DNA from: a virus
Taxonomy: Duplodnaviria > Heunggongvirae > Uroviricota > Caudoviricetes
Direction: 5' to 3' (one strand)
Virus record (IMG/VR): IMGVR_UViG_2534681998_000020
Length of the DNA: 6,638 nt
The position numbers are program-made. Numbering within the stretch: position 1 is the stretch's first letter; every line of letters starts with the position of its first letter. Positions 1 through 6,000 of the stretch are shown here, in pieces.

Positions 1-3000
1 GCTTCGTTGGTTAGCTATTAACGTGGGTATGTAATCATTCTGGCAATGCTTAATGCCGCTGCTTTTTCCAGATTGGTGATATCCTGCTCCAGAGCGGACA
101 GATTTTCAGCCTGCTTAGCCCTGGCTTCATTGGCCCATTTCAGGTCCTGCACCGCCTTAATTTTCTGGTGCATCCACTCATAAAGTTCATCATCGGTATA
201 GTCTGGCGCGATGATGACGGGGTCTCGTTTCTGCATGTCGGCTCCTTGTGGTTAGCGTTGCCTGCTTTTTAACCACGTCAGGCGAGGTGGTATCCTCTGA
301 GGGGTCTGTTACTCGAGAGGAAATTGGTTATGAATACAATCAAGTTTTCTTGCCCAGAATGTGGTGGCTAAGTCTTTGACACATCCTTTAAGCCGCAGGG
401 CTCTGACAGTTTCGCGGGAGCCATCTGCAAAAATTGTGGTCACCTTGTAACTGAAGATGAGTCCTCGCAGTTCGATGACGAAATCGTTGACAATATCTTC
501 GGTGCACTCACCAGAGACTTTCTGAAGTAAAGGCGCATACCGCTTAGTTACCGCTCTGATAACTCTTACCTGTCCGGCAATGGCGCTGATATCAATATAA
601 AGCGCCATCGCTGTTTCTTTGCTGATCCCTGGACGCCTTCCATTCTGATGTTTGACTCGCCCACTGAGAAATCCTCTGCTTCCCCTTAACGCCGGGTAGC
701 GGAACTGTTTGCTGAGAACACCGTGCGGTGTCTTGATGAGTAGAATTTAGAATAGCCTAAGAGTTATGGTCAAGCTTTTTGTGTAGAAAAACCTAAGCTT
801 CTTGATGTAAAAAACACAAGTATTTGAAAGTTTGTGCTTTTTATTACAGAGAGTTGCGAAAAAAAGGGGGGTTATTTATTTGCGCTTCTTTTGCGAGCTT
901 TGAGTAGTTCTTCAAAAAGTTTGTTGAAATTCTCAACTCGAGCACGCATCTCTGACAACAGAGCCTTTTGCTCTGACTCAGGCAGTGCGTCGAACAGTTG
1001 AAGCAACTCTTTTTGATCTTCTGTCAGATTGACTGGCTGATTATCTGGGATCGGTTCGCCTGGTTGCTTATCTTCATCTCCAAAAAGAAGCCAAGTCGGC
1101 GAGCACTGAAGCGCCTGGCTCAGTGCGAATAATCTCTTCCCCGCTGGCTGTGTTTCATCTCTTTCCCATTGAGAAATTGTTACGTGAGCCACTTTGACCA
1201 GCTTACCTAATGCGGCCTGAGACAGTTTTAATTTTTTTCGCCTGTATAAGAGGCGAGCACCGAAGGTTTCGTTTTTCATATTAGGTAATTCTAATTTTTC
1301 TTGACTTAGGTTTCTCTACGATCTAGTTTCCTTAGGAAAATCTAAGGGTTTCGATATGTTGAAAATTGATGCTATAGCGTTTTTTGGCAGCAAAACAAAG
1401 CTTGCCAATGTCGCAGGAGTTAGGCTGGCAAGCGTTGCTGCATGGGGGGAACTGGTTCCTGAAGGTCGCGCGATGCGCCTGCAAGAGGCATCCGGCGGGG
1501 AACTTCAGTACGACCCCAAAGTTTATGACGAATATCGTAAGGCAAAGCGGGCGGGGCGGTTGAACAATGAAAATCACCACTGAACAGGTTTGTGAGGCTC
1601 TGGATACCTGGGTATGCCGACCAGGAATGACACAGGAGCAGGCGACGATATTAATCACGGAAGCATTCTGGGCTCTGAAAGAACGCCCGAACATCGATGT
1701 TCAACGCGTCACGTTTAATGATGGCGAGGTTGATCAACGGGCGCTGGGCGTTAACCGGGTGAAGATATTCGAACGCTGGAAAGCTATCGACACCAGAGAT
1801 AAGCGTGACAAATTCACGGCGCTGATTCCGGCAATTATGGAGGCTATCCGGATCAGCGATTTCAGATTGTATTGTGAAATTACTGACGGAAAAAGCATTA
1901 CGTACATGATCGCCGGGTTAAACAAAGAATATGGCGATGTGGTGGAGTCCGGGCTGCTTTTTGCGGATCCAGTTGTTGTGGAACGTGAGACTGACGAGCT
2001 TATAGAAAAAGCTATTGCTTTCAAGCACGCGTATCGTCAGCAATACCAATATTACTTTGCAGATAAACAAATGTCTGCCAGGGGGGCGTATGAGTATCGA
2101 TGCACTACGATGGGCTAAAAAGGTGAAAACCGGCAGTTCATCCAGTAAGTCAGTATTGACCTGGCTTGCTGATATGTGCGGTGCCGATTTGTGTGCATAC
2201 CCGTCTGTATCTGCACTGGCAGAAGTAACGGAACTGAACAAAAAGACTGTGCAGGACAGCTTACGACACCTGATGGAGATTGGGTTAATTGTTGATACCG
2301 GTGAGAGAAAAGGCAGAACAAAGCAAATTGTGGTGTACCGACTTATCGGTGTAGAAGAAAGTGTTGCCGAGCCTGAATACACCCAAAAACGGGAGTCTTT
2401 AAAGGTGGGTAAAATTGGTGCTGTTAATAAAAACAGTACCGAAAATGGTTATGTTTCAGCACAAAACAGACCCAAAAACAGAACTCTTAGCTGCATGGAA
2501 AATAACCAAAGACACCCAAATTTTCCATCAAAGACACCCAAAAACGGATCACGGAACCCAAAGGAACCCAAAGATCTAAACCCCACACATAACGCACGCG
2601 AGAGTGCTCCGACCAGTGAGCAGGAAGTTTTGTCGTTACAGGCAGCCCCCCCTGTATTCCTGTATGGCCTGAGCGAACCCATCGGAAAATTCCCGATGAG
2701 CGATAGCTGGTATCCGTCACGGGATTTTCGACGACGGGCTGCGTTGTGGGGGATGGCTTTGCCGGAGACAGAATTTACACCTGCTGAACTTGCCGCCTTC
2801 CGGGACTACTGGGCAGCGGAGGGGAAAGTGTTTACGCAGATTCAGTGGGAGCAGAAATTCGCCCGTCACGTAAATCACGTCAGGGCGCAGGTTAAACCAG
2901 TCAGCAAAGGGGTAAACCATGCAGCAGCACCAGGTGGCACCGCATCACGGGCAGTTCAGGAAATTCGGGCAGCACGTGAGCAGTGGGAACGTGAAAACGG

Positions 3001-6000
3001 ATTTATCAGCGACGGAAACGGCCTGGAAGCTGTGGGAACTCATGGGGGTGGTTTATTCGAACCGCTGGATCCAGAAGAACGGGGCCGCACCTTCGAAGCT
3101 CTGGATTGCACAGATTGGCGCGATGACTGAGCAGCAAATCCGGCAGGTCTGCCGCCAGTGCATGGACCGCTGCCGGGCGGGTGAAACATGGCCTCCGGAC
3201 TTGGCTGAGTTTGTGGCACTGATTTCGAAAAGCGGAGCCAATCCATTCGGTCTGACGGTGGATGCTGTGATGGAGGAGTACCGCCGCTGGCGCAATGAGT
3301 CCTGGCGATACGACGGAAGTGATAAGTACCCGTGGTCTCAGCCTGTGCTGTATCACATTTGCCTCGAGATGCGTTCAAAGGGGATTGAGCGCCAGATGAC
3401 CGAAGGGGAATTAAAACGGCTTGCAGAACGGCAACTGACGAAATGGGCAAAGCATGTTAGTAACGGCCTGAGCGTTCCGCCAGTCCGGCGACAACTGGCG
3501 GCCCCCAAACGCCCGTCGGGGCCAACGCCAATTGAGTTGCTGAAACAGGAATATGAACGCCGGAAAGCGGCTGGTTTTGTTTGAGTTGAGAAGTGATTTT
3601 TTACCGGGAGGAAATTTATGGAGACTGTTTTTGACGCACTGAAAGCGATGGGAAAAGCCACGTCGGTATAGCTGGCTGCGCGACTTGATATCAGTCGTGA
3701 AGAAGTACTGAACGAGCTGTGGGAACTGAAAAAGGCTGGCTTCGTTGATAAAAGCGTATACACCTGGCGTGTGGCTGATAACAACGTTCAGCAGGAACAG
3801 CCAGCGCCAGAAGAAACCACCACGGCAACAGAAGCGAAAATCTCAGAGTGCGATTTAACCGCGACGATTGAACAACGCGGACCACAAACGGCGGATGAAC
3901 TGGCTACGCTGTTCGGTACAACATCCCGCAAAGTTGCTTCAACGCTGGCAATGGCAATCAGCAAAGGTCGTCTGATTCGCGTAAACCAGAACGGTAAAAT
4001 TCGTTACTGCATACCAGGTGATAATTTACCAGCAGAGCCGAAAGTTGAATCGGTAGCGGAAACCGATGGTAAAGCCTTTCCTCAGCCAGCCGGTGTTGCG
4101 TTACCGGTACAGAAAGATGCAACACAGGAAGATATTAAAACAGAAACTGTGGCGGACATTGTGCAGTCGCTGCCATCGTTTACTGCAACGCGAGAAGATG
4201 ATTTGATTTTGCCATCGCTGCATATGGCAAATCGCGAACTGCGTAGGGCGAAGAATCATGTCCAGAAGTGGGAGCGAGTCTGCGCCGCGCTGCGGGAGCT
4301 GAACAAGCACCGGGATATGGTTGCCGGGATTTGTCGGAAGTCCGGGCAATGAGCGGATGGTGCAGGCCTGAAATCATGATACTAACAATGAAGGTAAAAT
4401 GCATCGGCAGTCTGATTGGTCGTAGTGAGGCGGCGGTCAGGATGAAAGCCCAGGTTAAGGGAATAAGCCTGATTCTGCGGGGTGATTTTCACCAGTCAAC
4501 AAAATATCCGTAGCGCGATAACGGTCAAAAATTATGGCGCTGACACTTTTGTGCCACTGGAGATGACTGTACCTAAGTTCAGGGGAGAAGAACACGTCCG
4601 GTGGGATGGTCGGGCCAGATTTAAAGGGCAGGTCATGGCTCCAGCCTGTACGCTGGCAATGGAGGCTGCCTGGCGGGAAATTGATATGGGAACCACGCCA
4701 CTCAGGGATTTACTGCCGGTCCAGAGAATAAATTCCTGTTACGGTTACACCACTGTGATCTTGCAAGTGCAGGAAAGTAGGTCTACACGGTAACGCGAGT
4801 GCGTGTAACTTTTGATGTCATTCCCGTAGAAACACCGGACAAACTTTCGCTGACAGGTCATGCAGAAGGTATAAATCTGCAGATTATGGACAATTACGGA
4901 TATCCGGCAAGAGCCGGAAAAAGCATGCCGCCTCTAATTCTCAGTGGAAGATGGACTTGATTATACTCATTGCATTGTCAGAAATAGTTATCCATTAAAG
5001 GCTGGCTATTCCAAACAGGATGTTGATTACAAAAATGTAATCAACATGTAAGGTTTATACTCTTCAATATGCGTATAATTTTCCTTATTTTGTTGACTTT
5101 AAATAACAAGCTATGCACGAGGTAAAGTCGGATAAGTTTATCTGGATGTAATATATATTATTTGTAGTGTTTATAACTTTATTTCATGATAACCAATAAA
5201 AGGAGTTTTTTATGAGGAACATAATGGCAGGTTTTTTAATATTCCTGTCTTCTGCTGCTTATGCTGATATCAATCTGTATGGTCCTGGTGGCCCGCATAC
5301 AGCCTTGCTTGATGCAGCCAAACTTTATGCCGAAAAAACAGGTATTATAGTGAACGTTCATTACGGCCCACAGAACAAATGGAATGAAGATGCCAAAAAA
5401 AATGCAGATATCTTGTTTGGCGCATCAGAACAATCTGCTCTGGCTATCATTCGGGACCATAAAGACAGCTTCAGTGAAAAAGATATTCAGCCTCTTTATC
5501 TGCGAAAAAGTATTTTACTGGTAAAGAAAGGTAATCCTAAAAATATCCGGAGTATTGACGACCTGACCAGACCTGGGATTGGCGTAATTGTTAATGATGG
5601 TGGTGGTACCAGTAATACATCAGGCACTGGCGTCTGGGAAGATATTGCCGGACGTAAAGGGAATATAGAAACTGTCGCCGCAATCCGAAAAAATATTATT
5701 TTATATGCGCCCAATAGCGGAACTGCACGTAAGGCTCTTGAGAATCAGCCTGGAGCAGATGTCTGGATAACCTGGGCTGACTGGGCAGCCAGTAATCCAG
5801 AAATTGGTGATGTCGTGGAAATAGCGCCAGACTACGTGATATGGCGTGATATGAACATTACAGTACGTCAGGATGCAAATGATGAAACCCGTCGATTTGC
5901 AGAATGGCTACAAACCGATGAAGCGGCGCCTGCATTCAAAAAATATGGCTGGACCAGGAAAGGCACTTGACATCCTCGTCCTTCAGGACGTGGATTCTTT

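What the first reader, a model, noticed from the sequence alone, without database searches (positions are those of the whole stretch)
2090..3584. Initiator with a DnaT-like domain paired with a lambda-P-like helicase loader, with overlapping frames
The O-like protein ends in a domain very similar to the DnaT C-terminal domain (a PriA-restart primosome component), and the next gene is a lambda-P-type DnaB loader. The pair therefore carries two different handles on host helicase loading. The longest P-like frame also overlaps the initiator's last 212 nt in another frame, which would be an unusually long dual-coding stretch if ATG 2919 is the real start.
Basis: partly seen in the sequence, partly recalled or inferred. 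Interest (0 to 1): 0.45.

Follow-up and report, generated by a model that had tools for sequence, protein, structure and literature searches.

The report
Overlapping phage replication initiator and loader genes
An E. coli O157 prophage encodes a known type of replication initiator and helicase loader whose genes share about 210 bases read in two frames, an overlap kept across many enterobacterial prophages that shows the loader's database start site is too short.

Summary
All three observations hold.

- **Initiator (2090-3130).** It carries a DnaT C-terminal-type domain at residues 197-267 (Pfam 61 bits; E=1.7e-19 to solved DnaT).
- **Loader.** The next gene is a lambda-P-family loader (Pfam 61 bits; best fold matches are lambda P bound to DnaB).
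- **Overlap.** ATG 2919 is very probably the true loader start, so the 212-nt out-of-frame overlap is real.

Evidence for ATG 2919, from 26 loci as low as 42% identical:
- An aligned ATG is always present, preceded by a Shine-Dalgarno motif.
- The initiator-frame codon supplying "AT" changes amino acid but always ends in T.
- Conserved loader residues and a confident helix (27-46) lie upstream of both shorter annotated starts (3042, 3123).
- Both frames stay open far longer than synonymous resampling predicts.

The overlap is partitioned. First comes an initiator helix over a disordered loader leader, then loader helices over a disordered initiator tail. The same tail follows at least five different initiator bodies.

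The "two handles on helicase loading" reading is not supported. Only DnaT's ssDNA-binding domain is present, and it also occurs with DnaC-type loaders.

The domain pairing is already published (phiV10, DopC/DopE). I found no description of the conserved overlap.

The parts
2090..3130 (+). Initiator gene (O-like, 346 aa): wHTH, disordered linker, DnaT-CTD-like domain, then tail
   Evidence: ORF; PGAP gives the same coordinates and the name 'DnaT-like ssDNA-binding domain-containing protein'; AF2 domain layout
2090..2344 (+). N-terminal winged-helix domain (residues 1-85), presumed origin-binding
   Evidence: HTH_36 at 20.9 bits, below the cut-off of 25, in the window protein. The precomputed Pfam column lists PF13730 for close full-length homologues. 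AF2 gives helices plus a beta hairpin at pLDDT about 78. 39% identity to phiV10 p43
2381..2572 (+). Six direct ACCCAAA repeats in the linker-coding region: candidate origin iterons
   Evidence: All 6 window matches fall here, against 1.07 expected; 0 of 200 shuffles reach 6. Repeat families. CCCAAAAAYGG also occurs three times at 24-nt spacing in the phiV10 initiator linker. Function is inferred by analogy with the lambda ori iterons inside O
2678..2890 (+). DnaT C-terminal-type ssDNA-binding domain (residues 197-267)
   Evidence: Pfam PF17948 at 61 bits; E=1.7e-19 to PDB 6aep, 4ou6 and 9zbt. The DnaT ssDNA-contact residues F124, Y127, W128, K133, F135, K143 and R146 are identical in the alignment (residue list from PMC4132743). 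AF2 three-helix bundle at pLDDT 85-90
2906..2912 (+). Shine-Dalgarno-like AAAGGGG, 6 nt upstream of ATG 2919, inside the initiator ORF
   Evidence: Sequence. A 4-mer SD is present at the aligned position in 26/26 loci and a 5-mer in 24/26, against 14% and 6% for other ATGs in these genes
2919..3584 (+). Loader gene (lambda-P family), 221 aa from ATG 2919
   Evidence: Pfam PF06992 at 61.2 bits. ATG conserved in 26/26 loci. AF2 folded region starts at residue 27. Foldseek matches lambda P in 9oa1
2919..3130 (+). Dual-coding overlap, 212 nt (initiator residues 277-346 and stop; loader residues 1-71)
   Evidence: Overlap of 149-221 nt in all 26 loci; frame-openness simulations; frame-specific synonymous constraint
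2948..2995 (+). Initiator tail helix (residues 287-302, RAVQEIRAAREQWERE) overlying the disordered loader leader (residues 1-27)
   Evidence: AF2 H287-302. Initiator-frame aa identity 0.33-0.48 with background synonymous identity 0.36-0.41. Loader-frame aa identity 0.23-0.29 with raised synonymous identity 0.55-0.69. Loader residues 1-27 have pLDDT below 50
2997..3119 (+). Loader N-terminal helices (residues 27-67) overlying the disordered initiator C-terminus (residues 306-346, nt 3005-3127)
   Evidence: AF2 helices H27-46, H48-54 and H60-67 at pLDDT about 84. W50, K53, N54, G55, P58 and W62 are at least 90% conserved. Initiator synonymous identity is 0.72-0.98 here. Initiator residues 306-346 have pLDDT below 50
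3042..3044 (+). Invariant internal Met42 ATG: the start PGAP uses in Salmonella and Klebsiella homologues (180-181 aa); a possible second start
   Evidence: Hit lengths and names; invariant in alignment A2; only a weak GGGA 4-mer upstream in 21/26 loci and no 5-mer SD
3123..3125 (+). ATG used by RefSeq/PGAP for E. coli (WP_000139485.1, 153 aa); judged too far downstream
   Evidence: Annotation; conserved residues and predicted helices lie upstream of it

Best explanation
This is the replication module of a lambdoid (Rac/PPompW-type) prophage of E. coli O157.

Shown by tool results:
(1) The 346-aa initiator is modular. It has an N-terminal winged helix, a roughly 105-aa disordered linker whose DNA carries six ACCCAAA repeats, a DnaT-C-terminal-type three-helix ssDNA-binding domain (residues 197-267), and a 79-aa tail.
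(2) The next gene is a lambda-P-family helicase loader.
(3) The loader starts at ATG 2919, not at the annotated 3123. The last 212 nt of the initiator gene are therefore also read in the +1 frame as the loader's first 70 codons.
(4) The overlap is kept by selection across Enterobacterales and is partitioned. In nt 2919 to about 3005 the initiator frame is the constrained one (helix 287-302) and the loader frame encodes a variable, disordered leader. In nt about 3006 to 3130 the loader frame is the constrained one (helices alpha1-3) and the initiator frame encodes a disordered acidic end. That end's sequence is dictated by loader codons but it is kept free of stops.
(5) The tail-plus-loader unit is found behind at least five different initiator bodies.

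Inferred mechanism:
- The winged helix binds the repeats (the origin, inside the gene as in lambda).
- The DnaT-like domain binds and coats the ssDNA exposed at the melted origin.
- The tail, most likely helix 287-302, docks the N-terminal part of the loader, which brings host DnaB.
- Because the tail and the loader's N-terminus are the same DNA, recombination that swaps origin-binding bodies cannot separate a loader from its matching initiator tail.
For: Domains.

Loader start:
- An aligned ATG with an SD motif in 26/26 loci, against 14% for background ATGs.
- The initiator codon supplying 'AT' is CAT 15, AAT 8, TAT 2, GAT 1. That is four different amino acids, always with the T-ending codon.
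- L38 is at least 90% conserved and W39 invariant, both upstream of Met42.
- The AF2 helix 27-46 starts 15 residues before Met42 and 42 before Met69.
- The Pfam match starts at residue 60 at profile position 32.
- phiV10 P, whose gene overlaps its initiator by only 4 nt, aligns from its residue 25 to window residue 18.
- hhalign places window residue 86 at lambda P residue 94, so the N-terminal lengths match only for the long form.

Selection on both frames:
- Overlap of 149-221 nt in 26/26 loci.
- P(initiator frame open | loader protein) is about 0.03 for the whole overlap, and about 0.16 in the loader-dominated part alone. The product over 15 lineages below 70% identity is 1.6e-13.
- Complementary synonymous-site constraint in the two frames.

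Portability of the tail:
- DnaT, Phage_rep_O, DUF1376, HTH_36/DnaD_N and unassigned bodies all end in the same tail.
- In E. coli, near-identical DnaT-plus-tail halves are joined to at least 4 different N-terminal halves.

ssDNA role: 7 of 10 DnaT ssDNA-contact residues are identical, including all six tested by mutagenesis (PMC4132743).
Against: - There is no direct evidence of translation from 2919. No ribosome profiling or N-terminal peptide data were available.
- Loader residues 1-27 are poorly conserved and predicted disordered. A start at GTG 2976 or 2991, or additional use of Met42, cannot be excluded for this particular prophage.
- RefSeq/PGAP chooses 3123 in E. coli and the Met42 equivalent in other genera.
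- The lineages used in the openness test are related, so the product of probabilities overstates significance.
- The tail-loader contact is inference only.
- The last 40 or so initiator residues show no amino-acid-level constraint beyond staying open.
- The repeats are only candidate iterons. They also encode the P-K-N-G peptide repeats of the linker.
Confidence: 0.75

Rival explanations
1. The loader starts at the invariant Met42 (ATG 3042), alone or as a second isoform. The overlap is then 89 nt and the 41 upstream codons are an untranslated open frame.
For: PGAP uses this start for 180-181-aa homologues in Salmonella, Citrobacter, Klebsiella, Brenneria and Pectobacterium. Met42 is invariant. 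A weak GGGA lies upstream in 21/26 loci. Residues 1-27 are disordered and poorly conserved.
Against: W39 is invariant and L38 at least 90% conserved, both upstream of Met42, while the initiator frame is not conserved at amino-acid level there. The AF2 helix 27-46 would be cut in half. No 5-mer SD occurs at Met42 in 0/26 loci, against 24/26 at 2919. The ATG at 2919 is held at nucleotide level. The upstream frame is open in every locus.
Confidence: 0.12
2. The RefSeq annotation is right. The loader starts at ATG 3123 (153 aa) and the overlap is a trivial 8 nt (ATGACTGA).
For: PGAP annotation WP_000139485.1. ATGA-type coupling is the arrangement in lambda and phiV10.
Against: The block W50, K53, N54, G55, P58, W62 upstream of Met69 is at least 90% conserved in homologues down to 45% identity. 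The Pfam match begins 9 residues upstream, at profile position 32. Three confident helices lie upstream. There is no SD before 3123. Only 17 residues would then precede the region matching lambda P residue 94.
Confidence: 0.03
3. One reading: the DnaT-like domain is a second, P-independent route to host helicase loading. It would work by engaging PriA or the restart primosome, or DnaB/DnaC.
For: The domain is homologous to the part of DnaT that docks on PriA and takes the lagging-strand ssDNA (PMC13377028). Brezellec et al. raised a link to fork reactivation for DopC (PMC5509034).
Against: The DnaT N-terminal domain, proposed to recruit DnaB/DnaC, and the acidic PriB-binding linker (D66, D70) have no counterpart. 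The domain is also found with a DnaC-like loader, and without any loader annotated next to it (SPN1S). The conserved residues are the ssDNA contacts. The PriA-contact residues could not be checked because they are listed only in a figure.
Confidence: 0.15
4. The overlap is a neutral accident. The initiator stop was lost, translation reads into the loader gene, and the tail has no function of its own.
For: The phiV10 homologue ends about 28 residues after the DnaT domain and has a 4-nt overlap. The last 40 or so initiator residues are predicted disordered, and their sequence follows from the loader codons. Three loci stop 12 or more codons earlier.
Against: Initiator residues 285-304 are conserved at amino-acid level with normal synonymous turnover, which is the signature of protein-level selection in that frame. 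The frame is kept open where chance gives about 0.16 per lineage. The tail is retained behind at least five unrelated initiator bodies.
Confidence: 0.1

Closest known systems
DopC/DopE (Brezellec et al. 2017, PMC5509034)
   Same: The same two-gene architecture: an O-like protein with an HTH_36 N-terminus and a DnaT C-terminal motif, followed by a lambda-P-family protein. This is the published description of the domain pairing.
   Different: DopCE is a chromosomal, domesticated pair in Cellvibrionales and Oceanospirillales, reported without iterons. Here the pair sits in a prophage immunity/replication region and has candidate iterons. The word 'overlap' does not occur in that paper. I could not fetch dopCE loci to check whether they overlap.
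Phage phiV10 / epsilon15 (Uetakevirus) p43-p44
   Same: The p43 initiator is 39% identical across the wHTH, PKNG-repeat linker and DnaT domain. p44 is annotated as lambda-P family. The same CCCAAAAAYGG repeats occur in the linker DNA.
   Different: p43 has no tail and the genes overlap by only 4 nt. p44 is 261 aa and 28% identical to the window loader.
Bacteriophage lambda O/P
   Same: An initiator gene carrying the origin repeats internally, followed by the P loader that delivers DnaB. By established lambda genetics, the O C-terminus contacts P (my own knowledge, not tested here). The loader is a Pfam and fold member of the P family.
   Different: The initiator is not in the Phage_rep_O family (no hit). 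It has a DnaT-type domain in place of the lambda O C-terminal domain. Lambda O/P overlap by 4 nt against 212 nt here.
E. coli DnaT (replication-restart primosome)
   Same: Residues 194-270 align to DnaT 82-157 at about 55% identity, with the ssDNA-contact residues conserved.
   Different: There is no DnaT N-terminal oligomerisation domain and no acidic PriB-binding linker. The domain is embedded in an origin-binding initiator.
Overprinted (dual-coding) viral genes
   Same: Two frames are under selection in one stretch, and in each segment one frame is ordered and conserved while the other is disordered. This is the pattern generally described for overprinting (my own knowledge).
   Different: Here the overlap joins two proteins expected to act together. 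It also moves as a unit between different initiator bodies.

Membership tests
DnaT C-terminal DNA-binding domain (Pfam PF17948) | Profile match above the curated cut-off | tested here: met
   61 bits against a cut-off of 25, E=9e-17, residues 201-267
DnaT C-terminal DNA-binding domain (Pfam PF17948) | Sequence similarity to solved DnaT C-terminal domains, and conserved ssDNA-contact residues | tested here: met
   E=1.7e-19 to 6aep, also 4ou6 and 9zbt. F124, Y127, W128, K133, F135, K143 and R146 are identical; S147, I150 and G151 differ (alignment read against PMC4132743)
DnaT C-terminal DNA-binding domain (Pfam PF17948) | Three-helix bundle fold | tested here: met
   AF2 helices 213-219, 231-244 and 250-267 at pLDDT 85-90. 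No fold search was run on this model
DnaT C-terminal DNA-binding domain (Pfam PF17948) | ssDNA binding and filament formation | not testable with these tools
   Needs biochemistry
Full-length DnaT (primosomal protein I orthologue) | N-terminal oligomerisation domain and acidic PriB-binding linker (D66, D70) | tested here: not met
   The alignment to the 179-aa DnaT covers only residues 82-157. The region upstream in the window protein is a wHTH plus a disordered basic, Pro-rich linker
Lambda P helicase-loader family (Pfam PF06992) | Profile match above the curated cut-off | tested here: met
   61.2 bits against a cut-off of 26; profile to lambda P chains E=2.4e-6; hhalign probability 92.6%
Lambda P helicase-loader family (Pfam PF06992) | Fold like lambda P as seen bound to DnaB | tested here: met
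   The top three Foldseek PDB hits are lambda P chains of 9oa1 (E=1.2e-5, 215 aligned columns); the next hits are 9oa2 and 8v9s. TM-scores are modest (0.45-0.5), as expected for an extended multi-helix protein
Lambda P helicase-loader family (Pfam PF06992) | Gene immediately downstream of the initiator gene in the early-right operon | tested here: met
   Gene order is repressor, cro, YdaT-like, initiator, loader
Lambda P helicase-loader family (Pfam PF06992) | Binds and delivers host DnaB | not testable with these tools
   Inferred from family membership only
Lambda O initiator family (Pfam PF04492 Phage_rep_O) | Phage_rep_O N-terminal domain | tested here: not met
   No PF04492 hit at E<=0.1, only sub-threshold HTH_36 and RP-C. 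The protein works like O but is not a member
Lambda O initiator family (Pfam PF04492 Phage_rep_O) | Origin iterons inside the initiator gene | tested here: inconclusive
   Six ACCCAAA direct repeats at 2381-2572, enriched against shuffles and shared with phiV10. Binding was not tested, and the repeats also encode a peptide repeat
DopC/DopE-type pair (HTH_36 + DnaT_C protein followed by a P-like protein) | Domain architecture and gene adjacency | tested here: met
   for the domains (the precomputed Pfam column lists PF13730 for close homologues; the window protein itself is sub-threshold); for the published definition
DopC/DopE-type pair (HTH_36 + DnaT_C protein followed by a P-like protein) | Chromosomal domestication, no iterons, no prophage context | tested here: not met
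   The context is prophage immunity/replication with candidate iterons. This is the phage-borne form, not the domesticated one
Functional dual-coding (overprinted) gene overlap | Both frames open, and a start signal conserved across divergent relatives | tested here: met
   26/26 loci
Functional dual-coding (overprinted) gene overlap | Frame-specific suppression of synonymous change, or openness beyond chance | tested here: met
Functional dual-coding (overprinted) gene overlap | Both products made in vivo from the overlap | not testable with these tools
   Needs initiation-site profiling or proteomics

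The most novel reading that the evidence does not exclude
The roughly 210-nt overlap encodes, in two frames, the two surfaces that bind each other: the initiator's tail helix and the loader's N-terminal domain. It thereby forms a portable 'adaptor plus loader' cassette. Any origin-binding body that recombines in frame upstream of the loader's Shine-Dalgarno site at once acquires a matched docking site for that loader. This would be a physical mechanism that keeps cognate initiator-loader pairs together despite rampant mosaicism in lambdoid replication regions.
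Probability: 0.3. Interest if true: 0.6.

Novelty: new variant of a known kind. Interest (0 to 1): 0.42.

Why it matters
**Annotation.** The RefSeq product for this loader in E. coli (153 aa) lacks three conserved N-terminal helices. The 180-aa form used in other genera lacks half of the first helix. Related sequence is present in 2103 of 5426 complete E. coli genomes, so many records are affected.

**Biology.** The overlap suggests how mosaic phage replication modules can exchange origin specificity without breaking initiator-loader compatibility. It also gives a clean, testable example of partitioned dual coding, ordered in one frame and disordered in the other.

**DnaT domain.** The phage context (origin binder plus DnaT-type ssDNA domain plus loader) parallels the DnaA-like model recently proposed for DnaT. 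It may therefore inform how that domain marks a helicase-loading site.

**Practical link.** These modules drive replication of EHEC prophages after induction.

Tried and rejected
- **Word-indexed protein search with the 79-aa tail.** It returned only E. coli fragments and was uninformative. It was replaced by the exhaustive phmmer search, which gave 29 hits.
- **Viral-contig scan with the DnaT domain.** It returned only loci at least 96% identical and gave no diversity. A tblastn search of annotated phages served instead.
- **Tail as a frame-shifted relic of a longer P N-terminus.** Rejected: the tail shows no similarity to phiV10 P.
- **hhalign of the loader profile to lambda P.** It is significant only for residues 86-195. 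Homology of the N-terminal helices to lambda P therefore rests on phiV10 P, the Pfam profile offset and Foldseek coverage.
- **Stx-phage replication-region paper (PMC8044961).** It does not cover this module type.
- **Programmed +1 frameshift making an initiator-loader fusion.** Considered, but no slippery site was noticed in the sequence read, and the independent SD plus ATG explains loader expression. It was not pursued.
- **L029 and L037 as non-overlapped controls.** They hold orphan loader genes with no initiator. They are probably prophage remnants, so they were not used to define the start.

Full report
**Context.** The window is the immunity/replication region of a lambdoid prophage of E. 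coli O157:H7. It is 99.9% identical to many O157 chromosomes and 99.6% identical to the 'PPompW' prophages, and the right half of the query is 92% identical to Rac-SA53. The gene order is:
- a DicA-like repressor (872-1279, minus strand);
- Cro (1356-1583);
- a YdaT-like protein (1567-2118);
- the initiator (2090-3130);
- the loader frame (2919-3584);
- DUF1627, then paa and hok/sok.

**Observation check.**
- The 346-aa initiator matches Pfam DnaT (PF17948) at 61 bits against a cut-off of 25, residues 201-267.
- It matches solved DnaT C-terminal domains at E=1.7e-19 to 5e-18, about 55% identity over residues 194-270.
- The 221-aa frame from ATG 2919 matches Pfam Phage_lambda_P at 61.2 bits against a cut-off of 26, and a family profile matches lambda P chains at E=2.4e-6.
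- The two frames overlap by 212 nt, with the loader frame +1 relative to the initiator frame.
- One correction: the initiator does not end in the DnaT-like domain. Seventy-nine more residues follow, and these are the overlap.

**Where the loader starts.** RefSeq/PGAP starts the E. coli protein at 3123 (153 aa). A DDBJ record uses 3162. PGAP uses the Met42 equivalent (3042) in other genera, and many GenBank and metagenome calls use the 221-aa form. Eight lines of evidence favour 2919.

1. An alignment of 29 homologues, 45-78% identical, shows a strongly conserved block upstream of Met69. W50, K53, N54, G55, P58 and W62 are each at least 90% conserved. L38 (at least 90%) and W39 (invariant) lie upstream of Met42.
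2. The Pfam match begins at residue 60 at profile position 32, which projects the domain start to about residue 29.
3. AF2 on that alignment (mean pLDDT 75) gives residues 1-27 as disordered. It then gives confident helices at 27-46, 48-54, 60-67 and 71-86. The 3123 start would delete three of these helices, and the 3042 start would cut the first in half.
4. The best PDB fold matches are lambda P chains in DnaB-lambda P complexes, with up to 215 aligned columns.
5. In 37 genome loci from Enterobacterales, the loader frame is open about 250-300 nt upstream of the WPPDLAEF motif.
6. In the 26 intact loci analysed, an ATG aligns with 2919. It is preceded by GGAGG, GGGGG or GAGG at 5-9 nt. A 4-mer SD is present in 26/26 and a 5-mer in 24/26, against 14% and 6% for other ATGs in these genes.
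7. The initiator-frame codon that supplies the 'AT' of that ATG is CAT (15), AAT (8), TAT (2) or GAT (1). These are four different amino acids, always with the T-ending codon. This is conservation of the nucleotides, not of the initiator residue.
8. Phage phiV10 has a homologous initiator (39% identity) and a P-family gene that overlap by only 4 nt. Its P aligns to the window loader from residue 25 to residue 18. hhalign puts window residue 86 opposite lambda P residue 94, so only the long form has a lambda-like N-terminal length.

**Is the overlap selected?** The overlap, measured from the loader ATG to the initiator stop, is 149-221 nt in all 26 loci.
- With each loader protein held fixed and synonymous codons resampled from local usage, the initiator frame stays open through the overlap in about 3% of trials (geometric mean).
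- The converse probability, for the loader frame with the initiator protein fixed, is about 27%.
- Restricted to the loader-dominated part, the initiator-frame probability is about 16% per locus. Its product over 15 lineages below 70% identity is 1.6e-13. That figure is an overstatement, because the lineages are related.
- The initiator stop TGA is itself built into the loader's conserved [M/L]-T dipeptide (xTG ACx).

**Partition of the overlap.** Because the loader is read +1, the initiator wobble position is the loader's second codon position, and the loader wobble is the initiator's first. The constraint splits into two segments.

| Measure | First segment | Second segment |
|---|---|---|
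| Loader residues | 1-30 | 31-70 |
| Loader aa identity | 0.23-0.29 | 0.48-0.58 |
| Loader synonymous-codon identity (about 0.41 downstream) | 0.55-0.69 | 0.36-0.50 |
| Initiator residues | 285-304 | 305-346 |
| Initiator aa identity | 0.33-0.48 | 0.28-0.44 |
| Initiator synonymous-codon identity | 0.36-0.41 | 0.72-0.98 |

So nt 2919 to about 3005 evolve as initiator coding sequence, and about 3006 to 3130 as loader coding sequence. The structure predictions mirror this. The initiator has a helix at 287-302 and then a disordered end at 306-346. The loader has a disordered leader at 1-27 and then helices. In each segment one frame is ordered and the other disordered.

**A portable tail.** The proteins upstream of these loaders are not all of one kind.
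- By Pfam they carry DnaT (window, L024, L034), Phage_rep_O (L020), DUF1376 (L022, L023), HTH_36/DnaD_N (L019) or nothing recognisable (L021, L028, L032, L039).
- All of them end in the same tail, approximately ..GG.NHA...S.AvQqIRaAre.W...G..G.nl.EPlD.EER...
- An exhaustive phmmer search with the tail found it at the C-terminus of roughly 330-aa proteins. These carry DnaT, DUF1376 plus DnaT, Phage_rep_O, or no Pfam domain.
- Within E. coli, DnaT-plus-tail halves that are 84-90% identical are joined to at least four different N-terminal halves, with a junction near 'LNPTHNA'.
- The phiV10 initiator lacks the tail and is paired with a loader only 28% identical.

The tail therefore travels with this loader subfamily.

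**What the DnaT-like domain implies.**
- Only DnaT residues 82-157 are matched.
[quoted passage not shown] Neither the N-terminal domain nor the linker has a counterpart here.
- Seven of the ten ssDNA-contact residues listed for DnaT84-153 are identical: F124, Y127, W128, K133, F135, K143 and R146. These include all six tested by mutagenesis (alignment; PMC4132743).
- The domain also occurs in phage initiators next to a DnaC-like loader (pAEv1818).

The best reading is that it is the initiator's ssDNA-binding module at the opened origin, not a second helicase-recruiting handle. A PriA contact cannot be excluded.

**Candidate origin.** All six ACCCAAA matches in the window are direct repeats within 2381-2572, which is the DNA encoding the disordered linker. 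The expectation for the whole window is 1.07, and 0 of 200 shuffles reach six. The longer form CCCAAAAAYGG occurs three times at 24-nt spacing in the phiV10 initiator linker. This resembles the lambda ori iterons inside O. It is unproven, however, because the repeats also encode P-K-N-G peptide repeats.

**Proposed mechanism.** The steps below are inferred unless marked otherwise.
1. The winged helix binds the internal repeats.
2. The DnaT-type domain coats the ssDNA exposed at the origin.
3. The tail, most plausibly helix 287-302, recruits the loader's N-terminal domain. By analogy, the lambda O C-terminus contacts P; that is established lambda genetics from my own knowledge and was not tested here.
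4. The loader's C-terminal part brings DnaB, an inference from family and fold membership.
5. Co-encoding the tail and the loader N-terminus prevents recombination from separating them. This is consistent with the observed body swapping.

**Comparison with what is known.**
- The domain pairing is published. Brezellec et al. 2017 described DopC (HTH_36 plus DnaT C-terminal motif) with DopE (lambda-P family) as a domesticated phage pair (PMC5509034).
- The phiV10 record annotates a DnaT-family initiator next to a P-family protein.
- PGAP already names the window protein 'DnaT-like ssDNA-binding domain-containing protein'.
- The initiator is not a member of the lambda O family, since it has no Phage_rep_O match. 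It is also not a DnaT orthologue.
- I did not find a description of the conserved 150-220-nt dual-coding overlap, its partition, or the shared tail. The word 'overlap' does not occur in PMC5509034 or PMC8044961. My literature search was limited.

**Verdict.** In kind this is an ordinary lambdoid initiator-loader module with a known domain pairing. Its gene architecture is unusual, conserved and apparently undescribed, and it shows that current RefSeq starts for the loader are too short.

Noticed in passing
window 2381-2572: Six direct ACCCAAA repeats (longer form CCCAAAAAYGG) lie inside the initiator gene's linker-coding region. The same 11-mer occurs three times at 24-nt spacing in the phiV10 initiator. 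These are candidate origin iterons that also encode P-K-N-G peptide repeats.
   Followed up: partly
window 3618-4352 (TAG at 3669-3671): The DUF1627 gene downstream of the loader has an in-frame amber codon at codon 18 in the window and in O157:H7 TR01. The Stx2_14040 PPompW copy has GAG at that position. PGAP and the ORF listing therefore give shortened ORFs (3672 or 3771 onward). This may be a sign of prophage decay.
   Followed up: partly
window 1567-2118; L001 2569-3119: The YdaT-like gene upstream of the initiator is intact in the window (183 aa). It is flagged 'frameshifted' by PGAP in strain TR01. It overlaps the initiator start by 29 nt.
   Followed up: no
window 4750-5970: A low-GC stretch (0.36, against about 0.50 in its surroundings) carries paa, the AcfC-family adhesin Paa, and follows a frameshifted fimbrial-protein remnant. 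It looks like a moron inserted in the early-right region.
   Followed up: no
window 6159-6461: A hok/sok type I toxin-antitoxin locus is present. Rfam sok (RF01794) scores 103.9 bits at 6159-6308, reported on the + strand. The hokD/gef ORF ends at 6461.
   Followed up: no
L029 2992-3618; L037 2971-3540: These are orphan lambda-P-family genes (208 and 189 aa) with no initiator gene upstream. In Erwinia sp. CGal63 the gene lies next to a TtcA-like gene, by my reading of its translation (E. coli Rac integrates in ttcA, from my own knowledge). In another Erwinia it lies next to a long membrane protein that I read as a PTS-type transporter. They could be prophage remnants or domesticated loaders in the manner of DopE.
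   Followed up: partly
proteins P0079 (333 aa) and P0107 (385 aa): Some database proteins combine the P-family domain with extra N-terminal sequence in one ORF. P0079 carries DUF1376 (PF07120) plus PF06992. P0107 is 385 aa with only PF06992 listed. They could be sequencing frameshifts in the overlap or genuine initiator-loader fusions.
   Followed up: no
L045, L054, L056 and many other viral loci, against the window: Closely related prophages differ in the number of exact CCCAAAAAYGG copies in the initiator linker. The window has two exact copies and most viral-contig relatives have three. This suggests that repeat number varies at the candidate origin.
   Followed up: no
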